A stretch of DNA of 50,432 nt from a virus. The position numbers and the translations under genes are program-made. The notes beneath the pieces were generated by a model. It was not told where the DNA came from, made no database searches, and was given only the letters and a program-made list of their open reading frames with translations. The first letter of the stretch is position 1. Every line of letters starts with the position of its first letter. The stretch lies in the IMG/VR virus record IMGVR_UViG_3300029258_003011, one strand, 5' to 3'. Below, in pieces: positions 16,943 to 29,640 of this stretch.

Positions 16943-17917
16943 TTAGAAATCCAAATCCTCAAATGAAAATGTTGGTTGTGTGGTCTTCTCAGTTGAAGGT
17001 TTTGCTGCGGTTGTATCTGGAGCAGCTGCTGTTCCTTCATTTTGGGGAGTTTTCTCCTCTCCTCCAAATGGTGGTGCATCATCGACCTGCATAAGACCAT
17101 CATTTCCACCCTGTTGTGCTTGGGGAGAATAACCGGCAGATGCTTGATTTGAATTGGTTGTCCAGTTAAATTTTTCATTGAATTTATCCAAGGACTTTTT
17201 TGCCAACTCAAGAATCTTTGCAACTGCTTCATTTGGAATTTGAATCCCTGCCGTTAGTTTAAACACTTTCTTTGGACCATAGTTTGAGGGAACTTCATCA
17301 ATGTTAACGCTGGCCACAAAACGTTTATTATTGACTACTGCTTTTTCAAATCGTTTGCTTTCTTCGGTTTGGGGTTCAAAGAAAGGTTCCAGATCCAACC
17401 CTGCCATCTCGCTGAGATAATCAGCGATTGGTGCGTATTTCATTCCTTTCCCTCTAAGGAATACGAAAGTTGGTTTTCCGTCTTCTTTCTTTACTGGTTG
17501 ACCACTTGCATCACACAATATTCCTGCTACAATCATTTGGGCACGGCATTGTTGACACCACGGATCTGCTGCTCTTTCTGCGGAATTTGTTCCACATTGG
17601 TGGTTTTGGTGAGTTCCATGCCATGGAGGCGGACCCTGCTGAAATGAAAAGCACTTCACAGTTTCTCTTCCACTCTGAGCATCTCTATCTGTTTTCACCA
17701 AAACTTGTTTCGTATGGGTAATAATCATATGGATCATATCCTTATTGTATTCTACCCCACGAATCTGAAGTTTTCCTGCTTCTTCCGAAATGTTTTCTTG
17801 ATTCGTTCTTGTAACTCCAGCTATATATACGCTGTGAAAGAACTCATCTTTCGGATCTGTCGGTTTTCGATCTGCATAACCTGTTGCTCCCAGATCTTGA
17901 TAATCACTGTAATCCAT
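16943..17917 (-). CDS. ssDNA-binding protein, T4 gp32-like (Zn-binding subdomain, acidic C-terminal tail)
   Basis: His/Cys cluster 'WHGTHQNHQCGTNSAERAADPWCQQC' (H...C-x13-C-x2-C) resembles the gp32 Zn site. The extreme C-terminus 'FSFEDLDF' is acidic. Strong SD AAGGAGG upstream. Confidence 0.5.
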   Translation of the reverse strand: MDYSDYQDLGATGYADRKPTDPKDEFFHSVYIAGVTRTNQENISEEAGKLQIRGVEYNKDMIHMIITHTKQVLVKTDRDAQSGRETVKCFSFQQGPPPWHGTHQNHQCGTNSAERAADPWCQQCRAQMIVAGILCDASGQPVKKEDGKPTFVFLRGKGMKYAPIADYLSEMAGLDLEPFFEPQTEESKRFEKAVVNNKRFVASVNIDEVPSNYGPKKVFKLTAGIQIPNEAVAKILELAKKSLDKFNEKFNWTTNSNQASAGYSPQAQQGGNDGLMQVDDAPPFGGEEKTPQNEGTAAAPDTTAAKPSTEKTTQPTFSFEDLDF

Positions 17918-17961
17918 TGTGCTTTTCCTCCTTTGTGATGGTTGATTGAGTATTAATTGTT

Positions 17962-18603
17962 TTACCTATTTGGAATAAGACACCAATTTGAAAAGTTTCT
18001 ATCCTCCGGCAATGTCATTATAGAAAATTCCTTGCTGAACCAACATTTGACATGCTGACTTATCAAATCGTTTGACAATATGTGTACTGAATTATATTTA
18101 GGAAGTTTTGTAAAATCTGGATCTTCAATAGTTATTGGTTTGACTCTCCTAACTTTTTCATCCGTAATGGGTGGGATGATTAAAGTTGGATGGGGACAAT
18201 ATATAATTACCAGTCTTTTACCAACCATTCTAAATATTTCATTCTTATACATATACACATTTGTGTCCAGATCATATAATACTTTATCAGCATTAAGAAC
18301 CCTGTCAATTGAAGTATGCTGTCTACAAAGAACCCCATTTTTTGATTTATCTTTGCAGTCTTTGCAATCTGGCTGGTTAACTTTGTAGTTAAATCCTCGG
18401 AGTTCAAACTTAGAATCCGCTGCTTTATTAAAGTAAAACATGATTCTTCTTTTATTCAGGAGAAATTTTATCAAAGTTATTGCATATACGTCAACTTCTA
18501 ATTTCTCTGTAAATTGCTCAGCTGATATTACTTTCATGATTCCCCCAGATGCCAAAATTGCAAAACAAAAACGACAAAAACGAAAAAATGTTAAAATAAC
18601 CAA
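17962..18603 (-). CDS. Hypothetical protein (true start possibly at internal Met ~18537, 'MKVISAEQ', preceded by GGGGGAA)
   Basis: 213-aa ORF. The N-terminal 22 aa (FRFCRFCF) look like read-through of an A-rich non-coding tandem 9-mer (acaaaaacg x2). No motif recognised. Confidence 0.35.
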   Translation of the reverse strand: MVILTFFRFCRFCFAILASGGIMKVISAEQFTEKLEVDVYAITLIKFLLNKRRIMFYFNKAADSKFELRGFNYKVNQPDCKDCKDKSKNGVLCRQHTSIDRVLNADKVLYDLDTNVYMYKNEIFRMVGKRLVIIYCPHPTLIIPPITDEKVRRVKPITIEDPDFTKLPKYNSVHILSNDLISQHVKCWFSKEFSIMTLPEDRNFSNWCLIPNR

Positions 18604-18612
18604 GTCCGTCGC

Positions 18613-18732
18613 CCAATCTTTCTAGACTGACTTAAACGAAGTTTGTTGACAATACAGATAAATTAGTAAATGAATACTAAATTTAAAAGTATCATGCAAC
18701 AAACCGTGTTTAAATCAATCTAGAAAGATTGG
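18613..18732. repeat. Nested long inverted repeats (14-bp ccaatctttctaga/tctagaaagattgg outer; 8-bp gtttgttg/caacaaac inner)
   Basis: Outer perfect 14-bp arms at 18613-18626 and 18719-18732. Inner 8-bp arms at 18641-18648 and 18697-18704. A TTGACA hexamer lies within the loop. Potential ~120-nt cruciform or structured RNA. Confidence 0.6.
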
Positions 18733-18938
18733 ACAACGGAATGGCTTTCTACTTGAAGCACATAAATTAAATTACCGTAGTATTTTCTTTATGCACATAT
18801 TAAAATATAATAAGATTGAGGAGATTATCTAATCTTCCCTAAACCAATTTCCTCTATTATGACATATCGAAAATTGGCTCTCACTATATTGCTACATAAG
18901 TAGCCAATGGCTATCTTATGTTTTTAACTGCTTGATCC

Positions 18939-18958
18939 AAGAGTCTCTGACTCTTTTT
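18939..18958 (+). terminator. Plus-strand intrinsic-terminator-like hairpin (aagagtc-tct-gactcttttt)
   Basis: 7-bp stem, 3-nt loop, T5 run on the plus strand only. Lies in a region with no plus-strand CDS, which suggests a short plus-strand transcript. Confidence 0.35.
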
Positions 18959-18988
18959 GAGAATATTATAGGCATTCTCGTCACCTCT

Positions 18989-19264
18989 TTAAGTGTTATC
19001 AATAAGAACTTTGGGAACCTTCAATCCAAGAAATTGTGCAACCTTTACTGCAATTTCTCGTTCTGCAGAATATAAAAAAACTTCTACTCTTCGAATCAAT
19101 TTCTTTTTATTTTTACTTCCAACTTCACCGGCAAGATTTTTGGACGCCTTTAGTCCAAGGTGATCTCTTGCTACCTCTACAACTTGCTCAGAATCTTTTT
19201 GATACAAACAATTTATGATTCGACGAACAAGTTTTTTCCAGTTTTGCTCAATATAAGAGCTCAT
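18989..19264 (-). CDS. Hypothetical small basic protein isolated between two long non-coding regions
   Basis: 91 aa, K/R-rich ('SKNKKKLIRR'). Flanked by a 385-nt and a 305-nt non-coding gap. Preceded by a 20-codon uORF. Confidence 0.4.
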   Translation of the reverse strand: MSSYIEQNWKKLVRRIINCLYQKDSEQVVEVARDHLGLKASKNLAGEVGSKNKKKLIRRVEVFLYSAEREIAVKVAQFLGLKVPKVLIDNT

Positions 19265-19267
19265 GGA

Positions 19268-19330
19268 CTATCCAGTTTCCTGACTAAAGTTGATATTTTC
19301 TTCAACCAACCAGACTATAAATTCCCTCAT
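19268..19330 (-). CDS. Candidate 20-aa upstream small ORF / leader peptide (MREFIVWLVEENINFSQETG)
   Basis: Strong SD 'AAGGAGGAAGAAGAC' then ATG. Stop TAG lies 3 nt before the ATG of the 91-aa gene. Too short for the ORF track. Confidence 0.25.
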   Translation of the reverse strand: MREFIVWLVEENINFSQETG

Positions 19331-19391
19331 GTCTTCTTCCTCCTTTACACTAAAAGTTAATTTCCAACATAAAATTATTTTTGCCGACGTA

Positions 19392-19416
19392 GGAAGAAAT
19401 ATACTCCATTTCTTCC
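19392..19416 (-). terminator. 9-bp stem-loop (ggaagaaat-7nt-atttcttcc) in the 305-nt non-coding region
   Basis: Perfect inverted repeat, flanked by A/T-rich sequence on both sides. Strand symmetric. Confidence 0.4.
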
Positions 19417-19505
19417 ATAACAGATAAAAATTTAAGGAACAATTTCTATCTACTGGAAATTAATATATATAGTATATTGGAGTTTTTATGATTTTTACCT
19501 TTTCC

Positions 19506-19570
19506 ATTTGAGTCGTTTTTGAATCTTTTTGTGTTGCTTATTTGAATCTTATTTGAGTCTTTTTGTTTTT
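19506..19570. repeat. Iteron-like direct repeats (tttgaRtc + T-run, 4 copies)
   Basis: 'tttgagtc' at 19508 and 19552. 'tttgaatc' at 19518 and 19541. Each is followed by T-runs, in AT-rich non-coding DNA. Confidence 0.5.
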
Positions 19571-19839
19571 TATTTAACTTTTACTGAAACCGGTGTTTGA
19601 AAGTTTTTGAGATCTATAAGAATGTCTGCATTCTTAAATCGGTCAAATGTTGAGATTATTCTGTCCTTCATATCAGGAGGCATAAAAGAATCTGTGGCAT
19701 AAATATGTAATCCATTCTTTAGATTAAAAACTATACCATCATGACTATGCTTTATTTCAATAATCTCTTCCCTCTGAACTTCAATTTGTGTGCCATTACT
19801 GAAAATGGTTACTTTTTCTGTTTTGGTTTCCTCACTCAT
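19570..19839 (-). CDS. Hypothetical protein
   Basis: 89-aa ORF with SD 'GGGGGAA'. Last gene of the RNAP gene string. No motif. Confidence 0.4.
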   Translation of the reverse strand: MSEETKTEKVTIFSNGTQIEVQREEIIEIKHSHDGIVFNLKNGLHIYATDSFMPPDMKDRIISTFDRFKNADILIDLKNFQTPVSVKVK

Positions 19840-20437: not shown

Positions 20438-23400
20438 TTATTTTCCTCCTATCATAAGTGCTGTCATATAAGCATTCAGAAGGTCTTTTCCTGGAGTAAC
20501 TTTTGCTGGTCTATAATTAGCAGAACCAGTTTCTACAATATCTGCTATTATTTCATTTTTAGTTCCTGCATCATCAGATAGTGCTCCAAAGAATTCTGAT
20601 AATACTAATGGACAATTATAAGAAATCAAAGAATAAGTATCCAATTCTCCCATTCTCTGACCACCTTCTTTTCTCTTTCCTGCAGTCGGTTGCATTACTT
20701 TTCCTGTAACAGGTCCGGTTGATCTAGCATGAAGTTTTTCAGCGCCGATATGTTCAAGTTTTACAAAATATGAATAACCAACAGGAACTTTGGTCTTTGT
20801 CTTAGTATTATATTCTGGCAACTTCAGATTGTATCCACTTTTAAGATCCAATACTTTCATTGCAGCAATGATTTCCTTATACGCAGGAGCTTTAAATGGC
20901 GGAATTAGTAAAGTAAATGTATTGCTTTGTTTTATTTGCTCTACAAATATTTTGAATTGCCTTGTTGATAATCCATTAAAATTCTTTATTATTCCATTTG
21001 AAAAATCAGGATTTTTTGAATATAGTTTTGGCAATACTTTTTTCATCATAGCAATAACAGAAGTTTTTGATGGATTTTTCAAAATGACTTTTGCCATTTC
21101 TTTTCCTATGAGACCACTATATAGTTCATAAAATTGCCCCATATTCATTCTGTTTATTACACCAATTGGATTGCATATAATTTCAACTTTATCTCCCCAC
21201 GGAGTTACTGGCATAATCTCATCTTTTTCTACTAATGAAATAATTCCTTTTGCACCATGTCTATTTGTAAGTTTATCACCAACATTGACATGAAGTTCTT
21301 GCTCTATCTTAAATCGAATAAGAACTCCTTTTATTGTAACTCCTCGTTCAGTAAACTTTATTCGGGGTGGTTTTTTATGTCTTTTTGCAGTCCTTGCTGC
21401 CAAATCTTTCAACATAGGAAAGGTTGATTCAGGCACGTTAGAGAACACTTCAATATCAACAATAGTCCCGCCAGGCGATTTTTTAATAAACTGTCCACCA
21501 AAAATTTCCTCCCCTTCTTCATCTTCGCTTACTCCTATTAGTTGCTCAATCTCACCAATGGTCTTTCTTAATATTGGATCTCCTTTTTTGGTTTTATCTC
21601 CAATACTGGCAATATCAAGCAATCTATCTTCTTTTGATAATAAAACATCTTCAACAATACCATGTAAGGATGTAAGCTTTTCTTCATTAAGAACCGATTC
21701 ACTAATTACAATTCCATCCTCAAAATTGTAACCTTTATATGGCATTAGAGCAACACAAAGAGTTCTTCCCAATGAAATAGATCCTTTATCAATTGAGCTA
21801 CCTTCGGATGCTATATGTCCTTGTTTTATAGTTTGTCCTTCTGTCACTTTATTTTTAAATACACTTAGGGTATCTTTACCAGAACCTGATTTTAAATGAA
21901 CAGGTGTTGTGTCTATAGTATGTTTCTTTCCATTTGTGCATGTAATAATAACATTATCATCAGTAACTTTAGTAACCTTTCCAGAGCAAGGTGATTTCTT
22001 TACAAATACATCAGATAATGAATTAGTAAGCATTGATTCATATCCAGTTTGAACGACTGGAGCTTCTGGATTTTTCAATGGAACAGCTTGTCTCATTTGA
22101 TTAGCGCCAAACATTACTCGTGGACCATCATTATTTTCTATGAATGGAATAAGAGAAGTAGTTGTAGATAGAAGTCCAGAATTCTCTCCTTCTTTCATTT
22201 CTTTTTCTAAAAATAATCCTCTTGCTGACGTAATGTATGCGTCTACTGTCAAATGTTGTGCAATTCCAACATTATCACTTTCTGAAGTATCGAGAGGATC
22301 TATATTTCCATACATAGAAGGATGAACGTCTCTGCCTTCCATTGTTATAGCACCTTTATCAGGAATTCCTCCTATTGATTTTCCTATTGGTGAGACTCTA
22401 GTCATTGATGCCATTTCTTCGACAGGGTTTGCAAATTCCATATCAGCAACAATTTCAGAATTTACAAAGTCGCTCATTACTTTCCCTTGAGGTATTGAAA
22501 ATTGAGCTTCTTTGTTTCCAGATAATACTTTCTCTTTATATTCAGTATATGCTGCAAGAATTTGTTTTTGAGCTAAGTGAACAATAATTTCAGAATTTCT
22601 AATTCTTTGATTTGATATATCGTTCCTTTGCTGAGTAAAACCAGTCACAACTTTTGCTGCCATATAGTGCATTATTTGCTCTAATTCATAAGGCAATTGT
22701 TTATTAATCAATACTTGTTTTGCAACTGGGTCAACAATATTTTCAAGATTTGATGAAATCAAAAATGTTGAATTTACTCGACCTGTCATTCCTATAATAA
22801 GATCATTGAAATAATCTTTGGTTCCAAATTCTTTATCAATTGAATAAACTGAAAAGTCATTTCTTACAAAAGATTGACATAATTCTTTTTGAAGTTCAGA
22901 CTCTGCTCCTTCAAATACTATATATTCATCATCTGAAATTTTGGTAGAGAATTCTATATCTTTAGTTGGAGCATCTTTTGTTATTCTATGTTTAATTTTG
23001 AATGCTTTTAGTGTTTTATCAAAACCAAAACTATATGATAATACAACCATTAGAGGGAGCTTATATGACGCCATATAAACCTCTAAATGCGATTCACGCT
23101 TGGTACGCTTACTCTGTATATGGAACGCCGAGTAACTACTTTCAAACTTGGAATCATAAGGTTTAGGAAAGGTTATTGGGCATAAAACAATCTGATTGAT
23201 AAGACATTTTCTTCGTCCATTTATTTCAAACGTACCATCCTTTCCTATCTTAGGAATGTCTATTATAATCTCATGGGTATTTTTGAAATCATCTGTCAAT
23301 ACTACCTTTATAGTGCTAATATCAGATCTATCTATTTCCCCCTCTTTTTGCTTTTTATCTACAATTGAAATGCTTTTTGTTTTTAATGGAACTTCCTTCG

Positions 23401-24529
23401 TAGTGAGCACTTTGAAAGAATTTGTCATGTCAGTCTTTAGATTCTTTTCAAAATCAACCTGTCTTTTCTCAAATAGATGTTCCGGAGATTTATTATCGAC
23501 CGCTTTTTCAATATTGGATGATTGAACTATTATATCTTCAGATGCAGTCTTGGGTTTCTTTCTTTCCAATAATTCATCAGCGAATCTTTTATCAACCTTT
23601 TTAAGAACTGCGGATTTCTTATCTGCTTTTACAGATTTAGCTCCAAGTTTTGCTCTATTTATATTACCACTAGTTTTATGAAGAATTGATGCCGTAGCAA
23701 TCTCTTTTCCATCATTGCTATCGAAATCTCCAGAACTTATTTTTTGAAGTGTTTCTTCATCCTTAGCAAGGTAAGTCTTAACAGCAGAAGCAACTTTGCT
23801 TGTATTCTTTGGTGAAATATCTCCAGATATTTTTTTCATCACCATATTTGCTGCTTTATCTATTTCTTCTTGTTTTTCTTCTTCGGTCGTAGATATCTTT
23901 ATATTCTTAATCATTTGTTTAACACGACCAAAATGAAAAGTTCTGTCTTTAACAAGAAGTCTATATGCTGATGTTTCTTCAGTTTTTACATTTAAAAGCA
24001 TATGGTCAAAATATAGTTGCTCCTCTTTCATTTGAAGAAGTATGGTAAATATCTTCCTATTTATGAAAGTATTTATTTCTTTATTTGAATCAACTGAATA
24101 TATAAGGACCTTTTTGAAGTTATTAGGATAAGAAGAAAATACTTTTTGAAGCATATTTCTTATTAAGAAACCAGCTCGTTGCCTATAATGAGAGGGTTTA
24201 AATGAAGTATCAATTGCTTTAAGAAATGCTGACAAATCATAAATGATATTTTTTCCTTCTGGCACTTTTTGAGTTGATAAATATGCCTGTAGACCACTTG
24301 CTTTATATAGTGCTCTGTCTTCTTGATCAAGTCGAGATCTTGGGATTTTTGTAAATGGGACGACTACATGCCTTGCGTCAGTTCGTCTAATATTTAGTGC
24401 TTTATACCCATCAGTCAATTCCGAGTTTTCGCTAAAAAACACTATTAGGAATGGTTCTTTAGGATCTGGTTTGAATCGCACCCCATCAACAACATGTGTA
24501 TATGGTCTTAGTTTATCAAATTGAATCAT
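20438..24529 (-). CDS. rpoB: DNA-directed RNA polymerase beta subunit homolog (full-length, unsplit)
   Basis: 1363 aa. 'NRHGAKGIISLVEKDEIMPVTPWGDKVEIICNPIGVINRMNMGQFYE' aligns with the bacterial beta 'RHGNKGVISK...DIVLNPLGVPSRMNIGQ' catalytic region. C-terminal 'GGQRMGELD...' beta clamp motif. Confidence 0.9.
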   Translation of the reverse strand: MIQFDKLRPYTHVVDGVRFKPDPKEPFLIVFFSENSELTDGYKALNIRRTDARHVVVPFTKIPRSRLDQEDRALYKASGLQAYLSTQKVPEGKNIIYDLSAFLKAIDTSFKPSHYRQRAGFLIRNMLQKVFSSYPNNFKKVLIYSVDSNKEINTFINRKIFTILLQMKEEQLYFDHMLLNVKTEETSAYRLLVKDRTFHFGRVKQMIKNIKISTTEEEKQEEIDKAANMVMKKISGDISPKNTSKVASAVKTYLAKDEETLQKISSGDFDSNDGKEIATASILHKTSGNINRAKLGAKSVKADKKSAVLKKVDKRFADELLERKKPKTASEDIIVQSSNIEKAVDNKSPEHLFEKRQVDFEKNLKTDMTNSFKVLTTKEVPLKTKSISIVDKKQKEGEIDRSDISTIKVVLTDDFKNTHEIIIDIPKIGKDGTFEINGRRKCLINQIVLCPITFPKPYDSKFESSYSAFHIQSKRTKRESHLEVYMASYKLPLMVVLSYSFGFDKTLKAFKIKHRITKDAPTKDIEFSTKISDDEYIVFEGAESELQKELCQSFVRNDFSVYSIDKEFGTKDYFNDLIIGMTGRVNSTFLISSNLENIVDPVAKQVLINKQLPYELEQIMHYMAAKVVTGFTQQRNDISNQRIRNSEIIVHLAQKQILAAYTEYKEKVLSGNKEAQFSIPQGKVMSDFVNSEIVADMEFANPVEEMASMTRVSPIGKSIGGIPDKGAITMEGRDVHPSMYGNIDPLDTSESDNVGIAQHLTVDAYITSARGLFLEKEMKEGENSGLLSTTTSLIPFIENNDGPRVMFGANQMRQAVPLKNPEAPVVQTGYESMLTNSLSDVFVKKSPCSGKVTKVTDDNVIITCTNGKKHTIDTTPVHLKSGSGKDTLSVFKNKVTEGQTIKQGHIASEGSSIDKGSISLGRTLCVALMPYKGYNFEDGIVISESVLNEEKLTSLHGIVEDVLLSKEDRLLDIASIGDKTKKGDPILRKTIGEIEQLIGVSEDEEGEEIFGGQFIKKSPGGTIVDIEVFSNVPESTFPMLKDLAARTAKRHKKPPRIKFTERGVTIKGVLIRFKIEQELHVNVGDKLTNRHGAKGIISLVEKDEIMPVTPWGDKVEIICNPIGVINRMNMGQFYELYSGLIGKEMAKVILKNPSKTSVIAMMKKVLPKLYSKNPDFSNGIIKNFNGLSTRQFKIFVEQIKQSNTFTLLIPPFKAPAYKEIIAAMKVLDLKSGYNLKLPEYNTKTKTKVPVGYSYFVKLEHIGAEKLHARSTGPVTGKVMQPTAGKRKEGGQRMGELDTYSLISYNCPLVLSEFFGALSDDAGTKNEIIADIVETGSANYRPAKVTPGKDLLNAYMTALMIGGK

Positions 24530-24547
24530 TATATGATCTCCATCATA

Positions 24548-27500
24548 TTATCTCTTCTTGGTTTCAAGAACATCTCCTGTAACAATCTTTTCAATAATTG
24601 AAGGATCTATATCTTCTTCTGATATTAGTCCAGTTCTTATTGCTTCTCCAACATTTTCAAATGCTAATCCTTGAAGGAATCCTCCAGAAAATACCACCTT
24701 TTTTATATTTATAAGTACAGGATCATATGGTTCTACAAGTCGTGCGGGAATATGAATATTATCTTTATTTCTTAAAACCTGTGAGCATAACACCTCAATA
24801 TGTACAGAATCCATATCTGTAAGAGGAGGGGAATATACTCCAAGAACCCTTTTATATAAATGTTGGGCATCCTTTAATATTTCTCTTCCTCCAAGAAGTC
24901 TTTCAACAAATGCGACCTGACCTTTAATTTCTGAAGCTTCTGTTGATACTTCAAGAACTGTACTATTTGGAGGAAATGTCAATTTAATAAATTCTCTAGT
25001 TTTTTCTATTTCATAAACTGAGAATGATACTGAATAATCAAGAACCATATCAAATATTACATCCGCATATTCAACTCTTGCAATAACACTTTTTACCCAT
25101 AATTTATCATCTTCTAGTTTTATACTATCTGTTGTTTTATAATCTGCTAATGATATGGTTACTGAGCATGGACTTTTTGTTACTAGATTGTTTTCCTCCT
25201 GATTTAGATATTTAGATATAGATCCTTTGTCTAAATTTGAAAGAGGATCTCCATCAATGATATCTTGAGTCATATCATGCTTAATTAATTCAACCGCACC
25301 TCCCGTATGAAAGGTTCTCATAATCATCTGAGTTCCGCGTTCTCCAATTGATTGTGCAGCGATTATTCCAATGTACGGACTTCTATGTCTTTTTAATAGT
25401 TCGCCATAACATTTGAAACATATTTTTGATGACTTACAAAACATTGGGGATCTTAGTTTTATCACTTGACCAACTTTATAATCCTTCTCTTTAAAAACTT
25501 TTGATCCTACGTATCTTCCATCCAACCTTTTCATTAAATCGCTTGTAAGTTTTATAGTAAGAGTTTTCTTTGTACCACAGTCCATTAAATATTGGTCTGC
25601 TTCTACTGAATTTAATACAAATGCTAATTTTCTTGACATATATCCAGTATCCGCAGTATTTAAAACCCTATCAATAATACCTTTTCTTGCACCAGAAGAA
25701 GCATTAAAAAATTCTTTATTTGATAGTCCGTCTGAGTAAGAACCAGAAATTGGATCAAGAACATTTCCTTGTGGATCTGCAATAATACCTTTAGCAACCA
25801 GAATCTGCATTGCTTGACCCATCCCTTTTCCTGCTCCAGAATCCATTAAATCTCCAAATCCAGTATCCTTTATATGTTTCTTCACAATTTTCTCTGCTTG
25901 TTTTAATAACACTTCTGCTTCTTCAGGAGACGACGATTCTATTTTCTTTTTAATTGTGTATACTTCAGACGGAAGTTCTAATATATCTAAAGTTATACTT
26001 GGAGACATTATAGTTGCCCATTTGAATGCAACCTTTTCCATTTTACTTACAGAGTCTTTTATAGTCTCCATTTTATATTTCTTAGATAATTCCTTGATTA
26101 TAGAGTTTCCTAATTTTTTAGTTATTACTCCATCTTGAAAAGGAAAAGCTTTTGGAAAACAACTATTGAATATAGCTCTTCCCATTGTGGTAGTCATCCC
26201 TTTATATTTTACAGGAATTGTGGGATCATTTGCATTTTCAAGATCCTCTTCTTTAACTGCAATTGGAGATTGTTTTTTCTTTACTCCTTTAGTTAAAGTA
26301 TATAATCCAACCCACATTTCTTTACTTAATTCAAAATTTAAACTATCCGTACGAGCAGTACCAATTCCAGTCATCATTCTTGTTCTTGCTTCTTCTTGAG
26401 CTTCATCTGTTATTGGGTGATATACCGCCATTGTGTCTCCATCAAAATCTGCATTGTGAGCACCAACTTGCATTGTACACATCTGAATGGTATCACCCGA
26501 GTGTAAGATAGGATAGTATGCTGCATATGATCCAGTATGAAGAACTGGGTCTCTCTTTACTAAAACAACTCTTCCTCTCATAGAAACTTCAGCAGCTTCA
26601 TATATTACTTCATAAAGTCCTTCTGGTATTTTATCTCCACCTCTTATTCCCTTAAGAACTCTTCTTAAATTATCAACTGAAAGGTCTAATCCTGTATAAT
26701 CCTTTATCTCATTTTCTAGTCTTTTGGTAATTATTTTGTTTTTATACATCAGATGATGTATAATAAAGGGTTCAAATAAACTTACTGCCATTCTTAAAGG
26801 CAATCCGACTTCATCAATTTTAAGATCAGGACCTGGTGTAATTACCGCTCTTCCTGAAAAATCAGTTCTTTTGCCAAGCATTTGATTTCTTATTAGTCCG
26901 CTTTTTTTGGCAATTTTAGTTCTGATATATGCATCATGGTCTTTAACAGAATTTTGAAGGGCATAAGTTAGAAGATCAAGTAAAGGTCCACCACCAGAAC
27001 TTTTTACTTGGAATGTTCTTCTGATTATAACTTGATACATATCGTTTAGTTTATCAATTACCCATTCTCCACTACTTTCATCTTTATATGCAGATCTATA
27101 TTCAGGCGGGATAACTGGAAGTTTATTAATAAAAACATTTCCTGATTTATATTCTTTTTTAAGAACATTTACAAACTTCTCTCTAGATGTTGTTCCAGTT
27201 CTAAATTCTATTTTTGGAAACATTTTTACAAATTCGGATATTCCTGTTACTCCATTTTCATCTTCTACTAACATTCCATCTTTATCAAGAGAGAATGATG
27301 ATTCTGTAGATAGAAATTTAGATATTTTTTTATCAAGACGAAGAATTACATCAAGAGCGGTTGGATGAATAATTGTAGCTTGAAGATCAATATAAGCATA
27401 TATTTTTTTTCTTTCTAACGAACCAACCACGCCAAAAATATCTTCTGAAAATACTCCTTCTGGGTGAAACTCATCTGGTCTTGAGAAGTATTCCGCTGAT

Positions 27501-27553
27501 GTTATCGCATCAAGTCCTCTTGCCCATTGGTTGATATCTAAGAGAGAAATCAT
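24548..27553 (-). CDS. rpoC: DNA-directed RNA polymerase beta' subunit homolog (minimal, ~1000 aa)
   Basis: Absolutely conserved Mg-binding motif 'NADFDGDTMAVYHP'. 1001 aa, lacking lineage-specific insertions and an obvious N-terminal Zn ribbon. Located immediately upstream of the beta gene. Confidence 0.9.
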   Translation of the reverse strand: MISLLDINQWARGLDAITSAEYFSRPDEFHPEGVFSEDIFGVVGSLERKKIYAYIDLQATIIHPTALDVILRLDKKISKFLSTESSFSLDKDGMLVEDENGVTGISEFVKMFPKIEFRTGTTSREKFVNVLKKEYKSGNVFINKLPVIPPEYRSAYKDESSGEWVIDKLNDMYQVIIRRTFQVKSSGGGPLLDLLTYALQNSVKDHDAYIRTKIAKKSGLIRNQMLGKRTDFSGRAVITPGPDLKIDEVGLPLRMAVSLFEPFIIHHLMYKNKIITKRLENEIKDYTGLDLSVDNLRRVLKGIRGGDKIPEGLYEVIYEAAEVSMRGRVVLVKRDPVLHTGSYAAYYPILHSGDTIQMCTMQVGAHNADFDGDTMAVYHPITDEAQEEARTRMMTGIGTARTDSLNFELSKEMWVGLYTLTKGVKKKQSPIAVKEEDLENANDPTIPVKYKGMTTTMGRAIFNSCFPKAFPFQDGVITKKLGNSIIKELSKKYKMETIKDSVSKMEKVAFKWATIMSPSITLDILELPSEVYTIKKKIESSSPEEAEVLLKQAEKIVKKHIKDTGFGDLMDSGAGKGMGQAMQILVAKGIIADPQGNVLDPISGSYSDGLSNKEFFNASSGARKGIIDRVLNTADTGYMSRKLAFVLNSVEADQYLMDCGTKKTLTIKLTSDLMKRLDGRYVGSKVFKEKDYKVGQVIKLRSPMFCKSSKICFKCYGELLKRHRSPYIGIIAAQSIGERGTQMIMRTFHTGGAVELIKHDMTQDIIDGDPLSNLDKGSISKYLNQEENNLVTKSPCSVTISLADYKTTDSIKLEDDKLWVKSVIARVEYADVIFDMVLDYSVSFSVYEIEKTREFIKLTFPPNSTVLEVSTEASEIKGQVAFVERLLGGREILKDAQHLYKRVLGVYSPPLTDMDSVHIEVLCSQVLRNKDNIHIPARLVEPYDPVLINIKKVVFSGGFLQGLAFENVGEAIRTGLISEEDIDPSIIEKIVTGDVLETKKR

Positions 27554-27947: not shown

Positions 27948-27979
27948 TTTTATACCTCCAAAAAAAATTGACGTGCGCT

Positions 27980-28023
27980 GAGGAAATACTCTTTTAATTA
28001 TGTTCTAAAAAGAGTATTTCCTC
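27980..28023 (-). terminator. Strong 16-bp stem-loop upstream of the RNAP gene string
   Basis: 'gaggaaatactctttt'/'aaaagagtatttcctc' perfect inverted repeat with a 12-nt loop in the 86-nt gap. On the minus strand it is followed 15 nt later by T8 and the GGAGG RBS of ORF 27558..27947. Confidence 0.5.
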
Positions 28024-28033
28024 ACGGTTCGTT

Positions 28034-29482: not shown

Positions 29483-29640
29483 AATAATTCTCCTTATTTA
29501 GCTTCTTTTACAATATGACGTACCCCACACATATTGAGTTATAAAATAAAAACAAAAATAAAAAAAGGACTTTTTGATACCCTATTCGTAAAATTAATAT
29601 ATATTTTTACGCTGAGGTAAATGGAAGAGAACTGATAAAG

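What the first reader, a model, noticed from the sequence alone, without database searches (positions are those of the whole stretch)
19265..19569. Second long non-coding region: iteron-like tttgaRtc repeats, 9-bp hairpin, and a 20-codon uORF with a perfect SD
There are four direct repeats (tttgagtc/tttgaatc, each with T-runs) at 19508-19559. They resemble iterons or phased A/T tracts, as in an origin or a packaging/regulatory site. A perfect 9-bp stem-loop lies at 19392-19416. A 20-aa ORF (MREFIVWLVEENINFSQETG) with SD AAGGAGG ends 3 nt before the ATG of the isolated 91-aa basic protein gene, which suggests translational coupling or leader-peptide control. Together with the 18604-18988 region, this brackets the small basic protein gene as a possible regulatory or origin hub.
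Basis: seen in the sequence. Interest (0 to 1): 0.5.

Follow-up and report, generated by a model that had tools for sequence, protein, structure and literature searches.

The report
Phage promoter, structured leader, coupled mini-ORF
This 305-base gap after the RNA polymerase genes of an uncultured large phage is a conserved control region: a family-wide promoter-like motif, two RNA hairpins, an 11-base repeat tract and a tiny upstream reading frame that probably hands ribosomes on to a small basic protein gene.

Summary
All three observations are real and conserved. Everything lies on the minus strand, as do all genes in the window. The repeats form an 11-nt tandem array (19507-19564) with core ACTCA. 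That core persists at 11-12 nt phase in relatives whose flanking proteins are only 31-41% identical, while the sequence between cores is not conserved. The 9-bp hairpin (19392-19416) keeps its structure in 11 lineages despite different stem sequences. It is always followed by CCTAYGTCG. The 20-codon ORF has one of the strongest ribosome-binding sites in the window. It is kept open in 7 lineages and always ends within -14 to +3 nt of the start of a small 'MSS...' gene with at most a weak, badly placed ribosome-binding site. In 265 kb of family DNA, all 22 intergenic matches to this motif are in the sense orientation, at three or more loci, which indicates a phage promoter. The hairpins are more stable as sense RNA than as antisense RNA, which points to function as RNA. 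Best reading: a promoter, a structured leader and a translationally coupled leader ORF at the end of the RNA polymerase gene cluster. The repeats are a protein-binding platform, slightly more likely as unstructured RNA than as a DNA operator. An origin or packaging role is not supported. There is no Rfam match.

The parts
19570..19839 (-). 89-aa gene, last gene of the cluster 129aa / RNAP beta' / RNAP beta / 197aa / 89aa. The region studied starts at its stop codon.
   Evidence: ORF list. Pfam RNAP domains on 20438-24529 and 24548-27553. Homologues at 31-41% identity were used to fetch relatives.
19507..19564 (-). Tandem array of 11-nt units with core GA(C/T)TCAAA (ACTCA family core). Four good units plus one decayed middle unit. 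Predicted unstructured as RNA. A-rich and G-poor.
   Evidence: Phase of 11-12 nt (or multiples) in the lineages that keep two or more cores; L288 has none in this gap. Fold energy -1 kcal/mol over 70 nt. A 61%, C 16%, G 10%, against strand-wide G 20%, C 14%. Column identity to close relatives is only 55-58% although the core persists.
19474..19506 (-). Conserved block GAAAAGGTAAAAATCATAAAAACTCCAATATAC just upstream of the promoter-like motif. It holds one more ACTC(C/A)A unit.
   Evidence: 95-100% identical in L002, L003 and L006. 'ATCATAnnAACTCMA' is kept in L266 and L269.
19457..19473 (-). Motif 1, ACTATATATATTAATTT: family-wide, sense-oriented, intergenic, promoter-like signal (putative promoter; transcription start inferred within or a few nt after its 3' end).
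   Evidence: An exact 14-mer (ATATATATTAATTT) occurs only twice in the window, both intergenic and both in sense. The motif is kept after the 89-aa homologue in nearly all relatives. It also lies upstream of the 482-aa homologue in many relatives. In 265 kb of family DNA there are 22 intergenic sense hits and 0 intergenic antisense hits, with 5.8% of the DNA non-ORF.
19421..19452 (-). Hairpin 2 (12 bp), starting 4 nt after motif 1.
   Evidence: -9.7 kcal/mol, z = -4.9. The stem is kept with a wholly different sequence in L269, and compensatory pairs are present. Sense RNA is 4-9 kcal/mol more stable than antisense in 6 of 10 lineages.
19392..19416 (-).
   Evidence: The structure is kept in 11 lineages with stems GGAAGAAAU, AGGAAAAAAU, GGAAAUUUUA, GGAAAAGA and ACUAUAAAAA. 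One compensatory G-C to A-U change. Sense RNA is at least as stable as antisense in 8 of 9 lineages and within 0.2 kcal/mol in the ninth. With its tail it is found only in this gap in about 230 kb of relatives.
19382..19393 (-). Invariant 12-mer CCTACGTCGGCA, overlapping the last two stem bases and running 3' of hairpin 3. Role unknown.
   Evidence: Invariant in the window, L003, L006, L266 and L269. CCTAYGTCG is kept in L012-L014. Unique in the window with no complementary partner.
19347..19366 (-). Conserved pre-SD block TGGAAATTAACTTTTAGTGT.
   Evidence: Together with the SD it is 89-100% identical in close lineages. Its pairing with the motif 1 region is not kept in L266 or L269.
19339..19346 (-). 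Shine-Dalgarno sequence AAAGGAGG of the upstream ORF.
   Evidence: Conserved in all lineages that carry the cassette.
19268..19330 (-). Upstream ORF of 20 codons (MREFIVWLVEENINFSQETG). Its stop is 3 nt before the next ATG.
   Evidence: Open in W, L002, L003, L006, L266, L269 and L288 at 16-25 codons. The stop-to-ATG distance ranges from +3 nt to a 14-nt overlap. pN/pS is 0.2-0.7.
18989..19264 (-). 91-aa basic protein gene (MSS...), an internal duplication of a ~40-aa helical unit, with only a weak and badly placed SD of its own.
   Evidence: Homologues P0001-P0004. AlphaFold2 all-helical model, pLDDT 88, with no fold match. Single-unit relatives at the same place, with weak similarity.
29591..29607 (-). 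Second copy of motif 1 (AAAATATATATTAATTT), upstream of the 482-aa gene that precedes the RNAP genes.
   Evidence: The position is conserved in relatives.

Best explanation
The gap 19265-19569 (minus strand) is a transcribed control junction at the downstream end of the RNA polymerase gene cluster of an uncultured large phage.

- Promoter: ACTATATATATTAATTT (19457-19473) is one copy of the family's promoter. Transcription most likely starts within or just after its 3' end (inferred).
- Leader: the new transcript begins with two conserved RNA hairpins (19421-19452 and 19392-19416) and an invariant 12-mer, CCUACGUCGGCA. These probably protect or mark the 5' end and may be bound by a factor (inferred).
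- Translation: a very strong ribosome-binding site drives a 20-codon leader ORF. Its stop abuts the start codon of the 91-aa basic protein gene, which lacks a usable ribosome-binding site. That gene is therefore translated mainly by ribosomes that finish the leader ORF, by termination-reinitiation coupling. The arrangement is shown; the mechanism is inferred.
- Repeats: the 11-nt ACUCAA array just after the 89-aa stop codon is a conserved binding platform for an unknown oligomeric factor. I favour, about 5:3, that it acts as unstructured, G-poor single-stranded RNA in transcripts reading through from the polymerase genes. It would then work like a Rho-loading (rut) tract or a ribosome or protein standby tract that sets read-through or stability. 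The alternative is a DNA operator.
For: - Motif 1 is the best-conserved non-coding element. The exact or near-exact 15-17-mer sits at the same place in relatives with 31-41% identical flanking proteins. It also lies upstream of the 482-aa gene in the window (29591-29607) and in many relatives.
- All 22 intergenic hits in 265 kb are in the sense orientation.
- In some relatives motif 1 lies only 22-33 nt from a start codon, which leaves no room for another promoter.
- This matches the published rule that phages encoding multisubunit RNAPs carry a highly conserved AT-rich motif of about 10 nt centred near -10 of early promoters (PMC7598289).
- Hairpins 2 and 3 are significant. They are kept with different stem sequences and with compensatory changes. 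Their G.U pairs make the sense RNA more stable than the antisense in many lineages. The same holds, by 10-26 kcal/mol, for the giant hairpin in the next gap, so the region is read as sense RNA.
- The leader ORF has an 8-nt SD. It is open in 7 lineages although its peptide sequence diverges. Its stop is always at or over the next ATG, and the downstream gene lacks a good SD.
- Array: the ACTCA core sits at 11-12 nt phase in nearly all lineages, although flanks and spacers are not conserved. It is found almost only in this gap and only on the sense strand.
- The array is unstructured. Its C>G composition reverses the strand-wide G>C bias.
- Two units sit directly before an SD in a 35-nt intercistronic spacer in L288, where a DNA promoter role is unlikely.
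Against: - There are no transcript data: no mapped 5' ends, no ribosome profiling, no cultured host. Motif 1 could instead be a conserved RNA processing signal.
- In the window's clade the array lies upstream of motif 1, whereas in most other clades it lies downstream. It would therefore be absent from transcripts that start at motif 1 here. That fits a DNA site or a role confined to read-through RNA.
- An 11-bp phase is also one turn of B-DNA, as expected for proteins bound on one face.
- One clade (L016, L020, L024, L025) uses ACTT(T/A)A units without a pyrimidine-C dinucleotide, which argues against a simple Rho-type tract.
- C content is only 16%.
- The leader peptide shows some purifying selection (pN/pS 0.2-0.7 on 20 codons), so it may itself be functional and not a mere coupling device.
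- The long-range helix predicted in the window is not conserved.
Confidence: 0.5

Rival explanations
1. The repeats are a DNA operator. A sequence-specific, probably phage-encoded, protein binds the ACTCA cores head-to-tail on one face of the helix, one turn apart. It represses or activates the adjacent promoter, or blocks polymerases arriving from the RNAP genes. Promoter, leader and coupled ORF stay as in the best explanation.
For: - The period is strictly 11 (sometimes 12) bp or multiples across lineages.
- The 5-6-nt core is conserved with variable 5-6-nt spacers, as for direct-repeat operators.
- One extra unit sits 6 nt upstream of motif 1 in the window, L266 and L269.
- In the window's clade the array is upstream of the promoter, so it is absent from transcripts that start there.
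- The core differs between clades (ACTCAA versus ACTTWA), as expected if a protein and its site co-evolve.
- Known parallel: three tandem 11-bp direct repeats bound by RepB in pMV158 (PMC1851628).
Against: - No DNA-binding protein was identified. The neighbouring 89-, 91-, 191- and 197-aa proteins have no significant Pfam or PHROG hit. The 91-aa and 191-aa models have no fold match.
- In most clades the array lies downstream of motif 1, which is unusual for an activator.
- The strongly strand-asymmetric A/C-rich, G-poor composition and the flanking RNA-level hairpins suggest RNA.
- Two units sit in a 35-nt intercistronic spacer right before an SD in L288.
- Predicted curvature is unremarkable.
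Confidence: 0.27
2. The gap is a unique DNA-transaction site: a replication origin, a rolling-circle-type nick site, a partition site or a packaging site. The 11-bp repeats would be iterons, and hairpin 3 plus CCTACGTCGGCA would be the site that is melted or cut.
For: - The array, the hairpin and the 12-mer occur once per 50-kb window and only in this gap in 230-270 kb of relatives.
- The window is a replication and nucleotide-metabolism module: topoisomerase II subunits, helicase, RecA-like protein, ribonucleotide reductase and a 5'-3' exonuclease.
- The architecture recalls the pMV158 origin, which has 11-bp direct repeats and a hairpin-associated nick sequence TACTACG/AC.
Against: - Hairpins 2 and 3 and the giant hairpin nearby have sense-only G.U pairs, which points to RNA function.
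- The conserved 12-mer is 3' of the stem, not in the loop as in pMV158.
- No Rep/HUH nuclease, initiator or terminase was found among the 19 proteins scanned.
- Cumulative GC skew runs straight through the locus.
- In the L009 clade the hairpin is vestigial.
- The array is absent from this gap in L288.
Confidence: 0.08
3. Motif 1 is not a promoter. It is a conserved signal in the RNA, such as a cleavage site for a sequence-specific endoribonuclease or a terminator-associated element. The gap would then be an mRNA processing junction between the polymerase genes and the downstream genes.
For: - The motif is strictly sense-oriented and intergenic, which is equally expected for an RNA signal.
- In the L009, L018 and L021 clade it sits in the loop of a stem whose sense RNA is more stable than the antisense in L009 and L021.
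- Stable hairpins flank it, as at many processing sites.
Against: - A 15-17-nt near-invariant AT-rich sequence across very distant relatives is typical of phage RNAP promoters and unusual for RNase sites.
- It often lies 22-60 nt upstream of the first gene after a long gap, with no other promoter candidate.
- The sigma-70 scan found nothing convincing in the gap.
Confidence: 0.1
4. The features have no function. They would be low-complexity, AT-rich spacer with slippage-generated repeats, a chance hairpin and a chance short ORF.
For: - The genome is AT-rich at about 33% GC.
- Short ORFs and small hairpins are common in such sequence.
- The array's column identity between close relatives is low, 55-58%.
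Against: - Every feature recurs at the syntenic site in many lineages.
- The core blocks are more conserved (88-100%) than the neighbouring protein gene (84-89%).
- Shuffle z-scores for the hairpins are significant.
- The ORF stays open in 7 lineages, always with a strong SD.
Confidence: 0.03

Closest known systems
Early promoters of jumbo phages that encode multisubunit RNA polymerases (phiKZ, AR9 and relatives)
   Same: A highly conserved AT-rich motif of 10-17 nt. It can be found by comparing intergenic regions, is sense-oriented, lies upstream of gene blocks, and occurs in a phage that encodes beta and beta' homologues.
   Different: The sequence ACTATATATATTAATTT is specific to this family. 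Beta and beta' are unsplit here (1363 and 1001 aa). No transcription start has been mapped, and which polymerase reads the motif is unknown. The window shows only one polymerase set.
Translationally coupled upstream ORFs and leader peptides (termination-reinitiation coupling in phage and bacterial operons)
   Same: A short ORF with a strong SD whose stop codon abuts or overlaps the start codon of a downstream gene that lacks its own SD. The arrangement is conserved while the peptide sequence drifts.
   Different: No attenuator or anti-SD hairpin lies between the leader and the gene, unlike the erm and cat leaders or amino-acid operon attenuators. The peptide is hydrophobic in all lineages and shows some purifying selection, so it may have a function of its own.
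Promoter-proximal leader RNA elements of lambdoid phages (lambda nut: single-stranded boxA plus boxB hairpin; HK022 put: two stem-loops)
   Same: A single-stranded sequence motif and stable hairpins placed shortly after an early-type promoter. Structure is conserved more than sequence. This is a comparison from general knowledge, not a test.
   Different: There is no sequence similarity and no Rfam hit. In the window's clade the repeat tract lies upstream of the promoter. The polymerase is phage-encoded. No antitermination protein was identified.
Rho utilisation (rut) tracts
   Same: About 60-70 nt of unstructured, G-poor RNA with C>G just after a stop codon, with UC dinucleotides regularly spaced at 11-12 nt. 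The spacing rule is recalled from the literature and was not checked here.
   Different: C is only 16% and A is 61%. One clade uses ACUUUA units without a pyrimidine-C dinucleotide. The host and its Rho are unknown. It is also unknown whether Rho would act on a phage polymerase.
Arrays of 11-bp direct repeats bound by plasmid proteins (pMV158 RepB bind locus; R1 parC/ParR from memory)
   Same: Three to five tandem 11-bp direct repeats next to a promoter or hairpin region. In pMV158 a hairpin-associated conserved sequence, TACTACG/AC, resembles CCTACGTCG.
   Different: No Rep or ParR-like gene was found nearby. The conserved 12-mer is outside the loop. The hairpins behave as RNA. The genome is a large phage, not a small plasmid.

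Membership tests
Jumbo-phage-type promoter for a phage multisubunit RNAP | Highly conserved AT-rich motif of about 10 nt or more, shared by several intergenic regions of the phage and its relatives | tested here: met
   There are two copies in the window (19457-19473 and 29591-29607). The motif is kept at both loci, and at a third, in relatives.
Jumbo-phage-type promoter for a phage multisubunit RNAP | Sense orientation upstream of genes, in non-coding DNA | tested here: met
   22 intergenic sense hits and 0 intergenic antisense hits in 265 kb, with 5.8% of the DNA non-ORF.
Jumbo-phage-type promoter for a phage multisubunit RNAP | Motif centred near -10 of a mapped transcription start and recognised by the phage polymerase | not testable with these tools
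   No transcript data and no cultured phage. A distance of only 22-33 nt to start codons in some relatives is compatible with this.
Translationally coupled upstream ORF | Own strong SD and start codon | tested here: met
   AAAGGAGG lies 8 nt before the ATG. Only 5 of 55 genes in the window have an 8-nt core.
Translationally coupled upstream ORF | Stop codon within a few nt of, or overlapping, the downstream start; downstream gene without a good SD | tested here: met
   Stop-to-ATG distance: +3 nt (W, L002), +2 nt (L003), ATGA overlap (L006), 14-nt overlap (L266, L269), TAATG overlap (L288). The downstream gene has only AGGA, 14 nt away.
Translationally coupled upstream ORF | Ribosome occupancy, and dependence of downstream translation on the upstream ORF | not testable with these tools
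   Needs ribosome profiling or reporter fusions.
Replication-origin iterons | Tandem direct repeats, phased, unique in the genome | tested here: met
   Uniqueness was checked only over the 50-kb window and 5-13-kb pieces of relatives.
Replication-origin iterons | Initiator gene next to the repeats, or a strand-bias switch at the site | tested here: not met
   No initiator family on the neighbouring proteins (19 of about 55 proteins scanned). Cumulative GC skew is monotonic through 19.4 kb.
Rolling-circle double-strand origin (pMV158 type) | Nick sequence exposed in the loop of a DNA hairpin, with a Rep (HUH) gene adjacent | tested here: not met
   The conserved 12-mer lies 3' of the stem and the loops vary. 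The stems use sense-only G.U pairs. No Rep gene was found among the scanned neighbours.
Intrinsic (Rho-independent) terminator | GC-rich hairpin directly followed by a U-run | tested here: not met
   The consensus scan found none on the minus strand inside the gap. Hairpin 3 is followed by UACGUCGGCAAAAA.
Intrinsically bent DNA from phased A-tracts | Predicted curvature well above the genome background | tested here: not met
   The wedge-model bend of the array is at the 87th-93rd percentile of the window. The model is rough and uses parameters recalled from the literature.
Rho utilisation (rut) tract | At least 60 nt of unstructured, C>G RNA with regularly spaced pyrimidine-C dinucleotides in an untranslated stretch | tested here: inconclusive
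   The tract is unstructured, has C 16% > G 10% against the strand bias, and has UC every 11-12 nt. But C content is low, and the ACTTWA clade lacks pyrimidine-C dinucleotides. Dependence on Rho cannot be tested.
Any curated RNA family (Rfam 15) | Covariance-model match at or near the gathering score | tested here: not met
   No match in the window at gathering thresholds. In 18400-19700 only weak matches far below the gathering scores, most on the giant hairpin of the next gap and only one (Lnt, 21.6 vs 55 bits) inside this one.

The most novel reading that the evidence does not exclude
The ACUCA repeat tract, hairpin 3 and the invariant CCUACGUCGGCA together form a previously undescribed cis-acting RNA element. 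It would sit at the end of the phage's own RNA polymerase operon and control termination or read-through, in the manner of nut/put or rut elements. The transcribing enzyme would be a phage-encoded multisubunit polymerase, so the phage would tune expression downstream of its polymerase genes through an RNA signal read by that polymerase or a partner protein.
Probability: 0.15. Interest if true: 0.75.

Novelty: new variant of a known kind. Interest (0 to 1): 0.45.

Why it matters
This phage family is large and widespread. The neighbouring 191-aa protein alone has 372 protein clusters in public metagenomes, on contigs of up to 223 kb. It has no cultured member and no close GenBank relative.

- Promoter: a promoter consensus found by comparison alone gives a handle on the transcription programme of a phage lineage with unsplit beta and beta' polymerase subunits. 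It could be tested directly in vitro.
- Coupled cassette: the leader ORF plus small basic protein is a clean, deeply conserved example of coupling-dependent expression.
- New element: the array, hairpin and 12-mer are a conserved, locus-specific element with no entry in Rfam. If it controls elongation by a phage polymerase, it would be a new kind of regulatory RNA.
- Limits of the claim: the individual ingredients (promoter, 5' hairpins, coupled upstream ORF, direct repeats) are all familiar. As it stands this is a well-documented regulatory region and not a new principle.

Tried and rejected
**Searches that found no close relative**
- Near-identity search of 3 kb against GenBank phages: no match.
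- tblastn of the 91-aa protein against phages: no match.
- IMG/VR scans with the 91-aa and 89-aa proteins: nothing.

**RNA and signal scans with no useful result**
- tRNA/tmRNA scan: none.
- Rfam at gathering and permissive thresholds: no family in the gap.
- Sigma-70 promoter and intrinsic-terminator scan: fewer promoter-like sites than in shuffles, and none convincing in the gap.
- Search for a complementary partner of the 12-mer: none.

**Ideas tested and dropped**
- The long-range helix that closes the leader (TTAATTTCCA with TGGAAATTAA), predicted for the window, is not kept in L266 or L269. Rejected as a conserved feature.
- An ORF running through hairpin 3 is not conserved. It is 30 aa in the window, a 49-aa gene call in L003, and shifts frame with loop indels.
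- Readthrough of the leader ORF into the 91-aa gene. They share a frame in the window, but the frame relation differs in L003, L006, L266, L269 and L288.
- Phased A-tract bending: predicted curvature is unremarkable.
- The GKTQI-coding GACTCAAA pair near position 1000 is coding sequence, not another array.

**Searches that could not answer the question**
They could not give copy numbers per genome.
- Structure prediction and fold search of the 91-aa protein and the 191-aa protein gave no significant match, so no candidate binder of the repeats emerged.
- A literature check of a newly described large-phage lineage (moraphages) showed it lacks RNAP genes, so it is not this family.
Full report
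**Context.** The window is AT-rich at about 33% GC. Every credible gene is on the minus strand. The finding lies between an 89-aa gene (19570-19839) and a 91-aa gene (18989-19264). Upstream on the same strand are a 197-aa gene, RNA polymerase beta (20438-24529), beta' (24548-27553) and a 129-aa gene. Downstream are a 191-aa gene, a 324-aa gene and an 849-aa protein with major-vault-protein domains. The 191-aa gene's real start is the ATG at 18537, not the TTG at 18603. The rest of the window encodes topoisomerase II subunits, a helicase, a RecA-like protein, ribonucleotide reductase, an exonuclease and RtcB. There is no near match in GenBank phages, and the best RNAP-beta hits are about 28% identical. 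This is therefore an uncultured phage lineage that encodes its own multisubunit polymerase. Related contigs reach 150-277 kb.

**Observation.**
- On the coding strand the repeats read GA(C/T)TCAAA at 19552-19559, 19541-19548, 19518-19525 and 19507-19514.
- Tandem Repeats Finder reports one array at 19507-19564, period 11, 5.2 copies.
- The stem-loop at 19392-19416 folds at -11.5 kcal/mol, z = -3.5.
- The 20-codon ORF at 19268-19330 has the SD AAAGGAGG. Its stop lies 3 nt before the ATG of the 91-aa gene.
- A second hairpin at 19421-19452 (-9.7 kcal/mol, z = -4.9) had not been listed.

**Relatives.**
- Exact and near-exact look-ups of the 91-aa protein gave close lineages: L002, L003-L005 and L006, at 87-100% protein identity.
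- A full HMMER search gave two distant homologues at 51% and 41%. Their contigs (L266-L268 and L269) show the same gene order.
- A metagenome scan with an alignment of the 89-aa family gave 15 more loci at 31-41% identity.
- IMG/VR gave four long contigs through RNAP beta and 17 through the 482-aa gene.
- One more lineage, L288, came from the 191-aa family.

**What is conserved.** In the close lineages the conservation profile is uneven.

| Segment | Identity to close relatives |
|---|---|
| Repeat array | 55-58% |
| Block with motif 1 | 95% |
| Hairpin 2 | 88-98% |
| Hairpin 3 and tail | 97% |
| Pre-SD block and SD | 89-100% |
| 91-aa gene | 84-89% |
| Leader ORF | 49-72% |

Several non-coding blocks are thus better conserved than the protein gene next to them.

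**Motif 1.**
It is the most widely conserved element.
- It recurs, exactly or with 1-3 changes, about 23 nt after the 89-aa homologue's stop in nearly all distant relatives.
- A second copy lies in the window at 29591-29607, upstream of the 482-aa gene that precedes the polymerase genes. Many relatives carry it in that place too, sometimes only 22-33 nt from the start codon.
- Over 265 kb of family DNA, of which 5.8% is non-ORF, there are 22 intergenic sense hits and no intergenic antisense hit. The ten hits inside ORFs are mostly chance matches with three mismatches.
- This fits the published generalisation that phages with their own multisubunit polymerases have a highly conserved AT-rich motif of about 10 nt centred near -10 of early promoters (PMC7598289).
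- I therefore read motif 1 as a promoter, with the start site inferred within or just after its 3' end. The main alternative is a conserved RNA signal. I cannot exclude it without transcript ends.

**Hairpins.**
- Hairpin 2 follows motif 1 within a few nucleotides in most lineages. Its stem sequence can be completely different: TAGATAGAAATT/AATTTTTATCTG in the window, AATAAACAAAA/TTTTGTTTATT in L269. RNAalifold finds compensatory changes.
- Hairpin 3 keeps a 9-12-bp stem in 11 lineages with five different stem sequences. It is always followed at once by CCTAYGTCG or a close variant. In the window's clade, L266 and L269, the 12-mer CCTACGTCGGCA is invariant.
- Hairpin 3 with its tail occurs only in this gap in about 230 kb of relatives. 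The 12-mer is unique in the window and has no complementary partner.
- Folding each hairpin on both strands shows that the sense RNA is more stable in many lineages. For hairpin 2 the margin is 4-9 kcal/mol in 6 of 10 lineages. For hairpin 3 it reaches 9.6 kcal/mol in L014.
- This means the imperfections are G.U pairs, which exist only in the sense transcript. That is evidence for selection on RNA, not on DNA cruciforms.
- The same test is far clearer for the 65-70-bp hairpin in the next gap (18598-18747): -80 against -56 kcal/mol in the window, with differences of 10-26 kcal/mol in three relatives whose sequences differ.

**Leader ORF.** Seven lineages carry a short ORF with a strong SD that ends at or over the next ATG.

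| Lineage | Peptide | Relation of stop to downstream ATG |
|---|---|---|
| Window | MREFIVWLVEENINFSQETG | 3 nt before |
| L002 | MREFIVWCVEETINFSQETG | 3 nt before |
| L003 | MKEFGILLVEDNIDFCQESG | 2 nt before |
| L006 | MELLVILSIDNINDTRNSG | ATGA overlap |
| L266 | MTNVLLTVVMSVVNIKSTYYSNELI | 14-nt overlap |
| L269 | MKKKSFLVLVFINEFL | 14-nt overlap |
| L288 | (V)AYGFSVVNFFNTWGG | TAATG overlap |

- The downstream gene always starts MSS... and has no usable SD. In the window there is only an AGGA 14 nt away, and in L266 and L269 nothing at all.
- The frame relation between the two ORFs differs among lineages, so readthrough or frameshifting is not the link.
- The peptide diverges fast. There are 6 differences in 60 nt between the window and L002, against 1 in 273 nt of the gene. 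Yet pN/pS is 0.2-0.7, and all versions have a hydrophobic core.
- The arrangement is what translational coupling requires.
- The 91-aa protein is an internal duplication of a ~40-aa helical unit (KKLIRR...VVEVA..LGLKVPK.L). Single-unit proteins with weak similarity sit at the same place in L288 and in the L009 clade.
- Its AlphaFold2 model is confident and all-helical but matches no solved fold.

**The repeats.**
- The core ACTCA recurs at 11-nt spacing, sometimes 12 or multiples, in L003, L006, L269, L010, L012-L015 and the L009, L018 and L021-L023 group. A variant, ACTT(T/A)A, occurs in L016, L020, L024 and L025.
- Phased pairs or triplets of the core are almost confined to this gap and to the sense strand.
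- Position relative to hairpin 3 is constant, always 5' of it. Position relative to motif 1 is not. In most clades the order is motif 1, hairpin 2, array, hairpin 3. In the window's clade, L266 and L269 it is array, motif 1, hairpin 2, hairpin 3.
- The array is kept where the gap has no 91-aa-type gene (L007, L010, L012-L014). It is absent from this gap in L288, which has such a gene. The 91-aa protein is therefore not its obligatory partner.

Two readings of the array remain.

*RNA reading.*
- The tract is predicted to be unstructured.
- It is 61% A, with C (16%) above G (10%), although this strand has G (20%) above C (14%) overall.
- Its neighbours are RNA-level hairpins.
- In L288 two units lie in a 35-nt spacer directly in front of an SD. 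The window's own 44-nt spacer before the 324-aa gene likewise holds one ACTCAA unit in a G-free A/C-rich run.

*DNA reading.*
- The period equals one helical turn.
- A 5-6-nt core with variable spacers is typical of direct-repeat operators.
- An extra unit sits 6 nt upstream of motif 1.
- In the window's clade the array is not part of transcripts that start at motif 1.

I favour RNA by a small margin.

**Origin, nick-site or packaging reading.** It gains a little from uniqueness, from the replication-gene context and from the resemblance to the pMV158 origin. It loses on four counts:
- the RNA-type pairs in the hairpins;
- the position of the 12-mer outside the loop;
- the lack of any initiator, HUH nuclease or terminase among the 19 proteins scanned;
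- the straight GC-skew line through the locus.

Intrinsic bending by phased A-tracts is not supported either, at the 87th-93rd percentile of the window.

**Verdict.**
- It is a promoter-leader junction with a coupled leader ORF, plus a conserved repeat tract whose binding partner is unknown.
- It belongs to known kinds of regulatory element, but its specific parts are not in any curated family.
- What is shown: presence, significance, conservation, orientation bias, sense-strand pairing, and the ORF arrangement.
- What is inferred: promoter activity, the start site, coupling as the mechanism, and the level (RNA or DNA) at which the repeats act.

Noticed in passing
window 18598-18747 (minus strand); L266 4488-4632; L269 1548-1695; L009 9140-9262; L288 2408-2456: The next gap, upstream of the 191-aa gene, holds a giant near-perfect hairpin of about 65-70 bp (-80 kcal/mol, z = -15). 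Distant relatives have an equally long hairpin at the same place with a different sequence. In the four long versions tested on both strands the sense RNA is 10-26 kcal/mol more stable than the antisense (G.U pairs), so it is selected as double-stranded RNA. It may be an RNase III-type processing or regulatory element in the 5' leader of the 191-aa gene.
   Followed up: partly
L021 2931-2979; L018 2926-2978; L009 8227-8269: In one clade of relatives the homologous gap contains a match above threshold to the Rfam candidate cis-regulatory motif DUF3800-VI (RF02915, 42-52 bits), just upstream of the ACTCA repeats. The window has no such match.
   Followed up: no
window 29483-29640 (minus strand): The gap in front of the 482-aa gene repeats the layout in miniature: motif 1 (29591-29607), a T-rich stretch, one AACTCAA unit, TACGTCA (29516-29522), then the SD and start.
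   Followed up: partly
window 27948-28033 (minus strand): A 16-bp hairpin (GAGGAAATACTCTTTT / AAAAGAGTATTTCCTC) is followed by AGCGCACGTCA and a run of eight T, just before the 129-aa gene that precedes beta'. The 'hairpin then ACGTC' pattern resembles hairpin 3 and its tail.
   Followed up: no
window 19268-19330 compared with L002 799-861: The window and L002 are identical over nearly 600 nt, except for 6 substitutions packed into the 60-nt leader ORF (2 amino-acid changes of two bases each, plus 2 silent changes) and 1 in the 91-aa gene. This is a local hot spot or a small recombination patch.
   Followed up: partly
L012, L013, L014, about 20-90 nt after hairpin 3: Lineages without the 91-aa gene still have a short hydrophobic ORF of 19-23 codons (MSVVRRTSFLFYYLFISQD, MSAVCRSELFLLFYLLYSRLKTY, MGMVCRKIIFIYHLLWLKTY). 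It follows CCTATGTCG and ends inside the 5' arm of the giant hairpin. These were read by eye and not verified further.
   Followed up: no
window 17962-18603 (minus strand): The 213-aa ORF from the TTG at 18603 is probably a 191-aa gene that starts at the ATG at 18537 (MKVISAEQF...). All homologues are 189-193 aa, and gene calls in relatives agree. The second non-coding gap therefore spans 18538-18988.
   Followed up: yes
window 9828-17917 (minus strand): The phage carries a conserved module: a major-vault-protein-like 849-aa protein (MVP shoulder domain, E = 5e-20), a 324-aa protein with a weak, sub-threshold zinc-ribbon-like match, a coiled-coil 344-aa protein, and two further proteins of 410 and 437 aa whose sequences look like an AAA+ ATPase and a von Willebrand A protein (by eye; not scanned). 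Homologues of the adjacent 191-aa protein are labelled in NCBI as Thermoplasmata and Heimdallarchaeaceae MAG proteins, probably through mis-binning of phage contigs.
   Followed up: no
window 13124-13179, 14215-14303, 16854-16942 (minus strand): Short gaps between the downstream genes each hold a GC-rich hairpin (for example GGGAGGACTTTTATAGTCCTCCC) with no U-run after it, followed by an AT-rich stretch and the SD. These are a different class of intergenic signal from the one studied, possibly terminators or stabilisers for the phage polymerase.
   Followed up: no
L288 3076-3112; window 17918-17961: The short spacer between the 191-aa gene and the next gene carries one or two ACTCA units in a G-free A/C-rich run immediately before the SD. 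The unit may therefore be a general leader building block in this module.
   Followed up: partly
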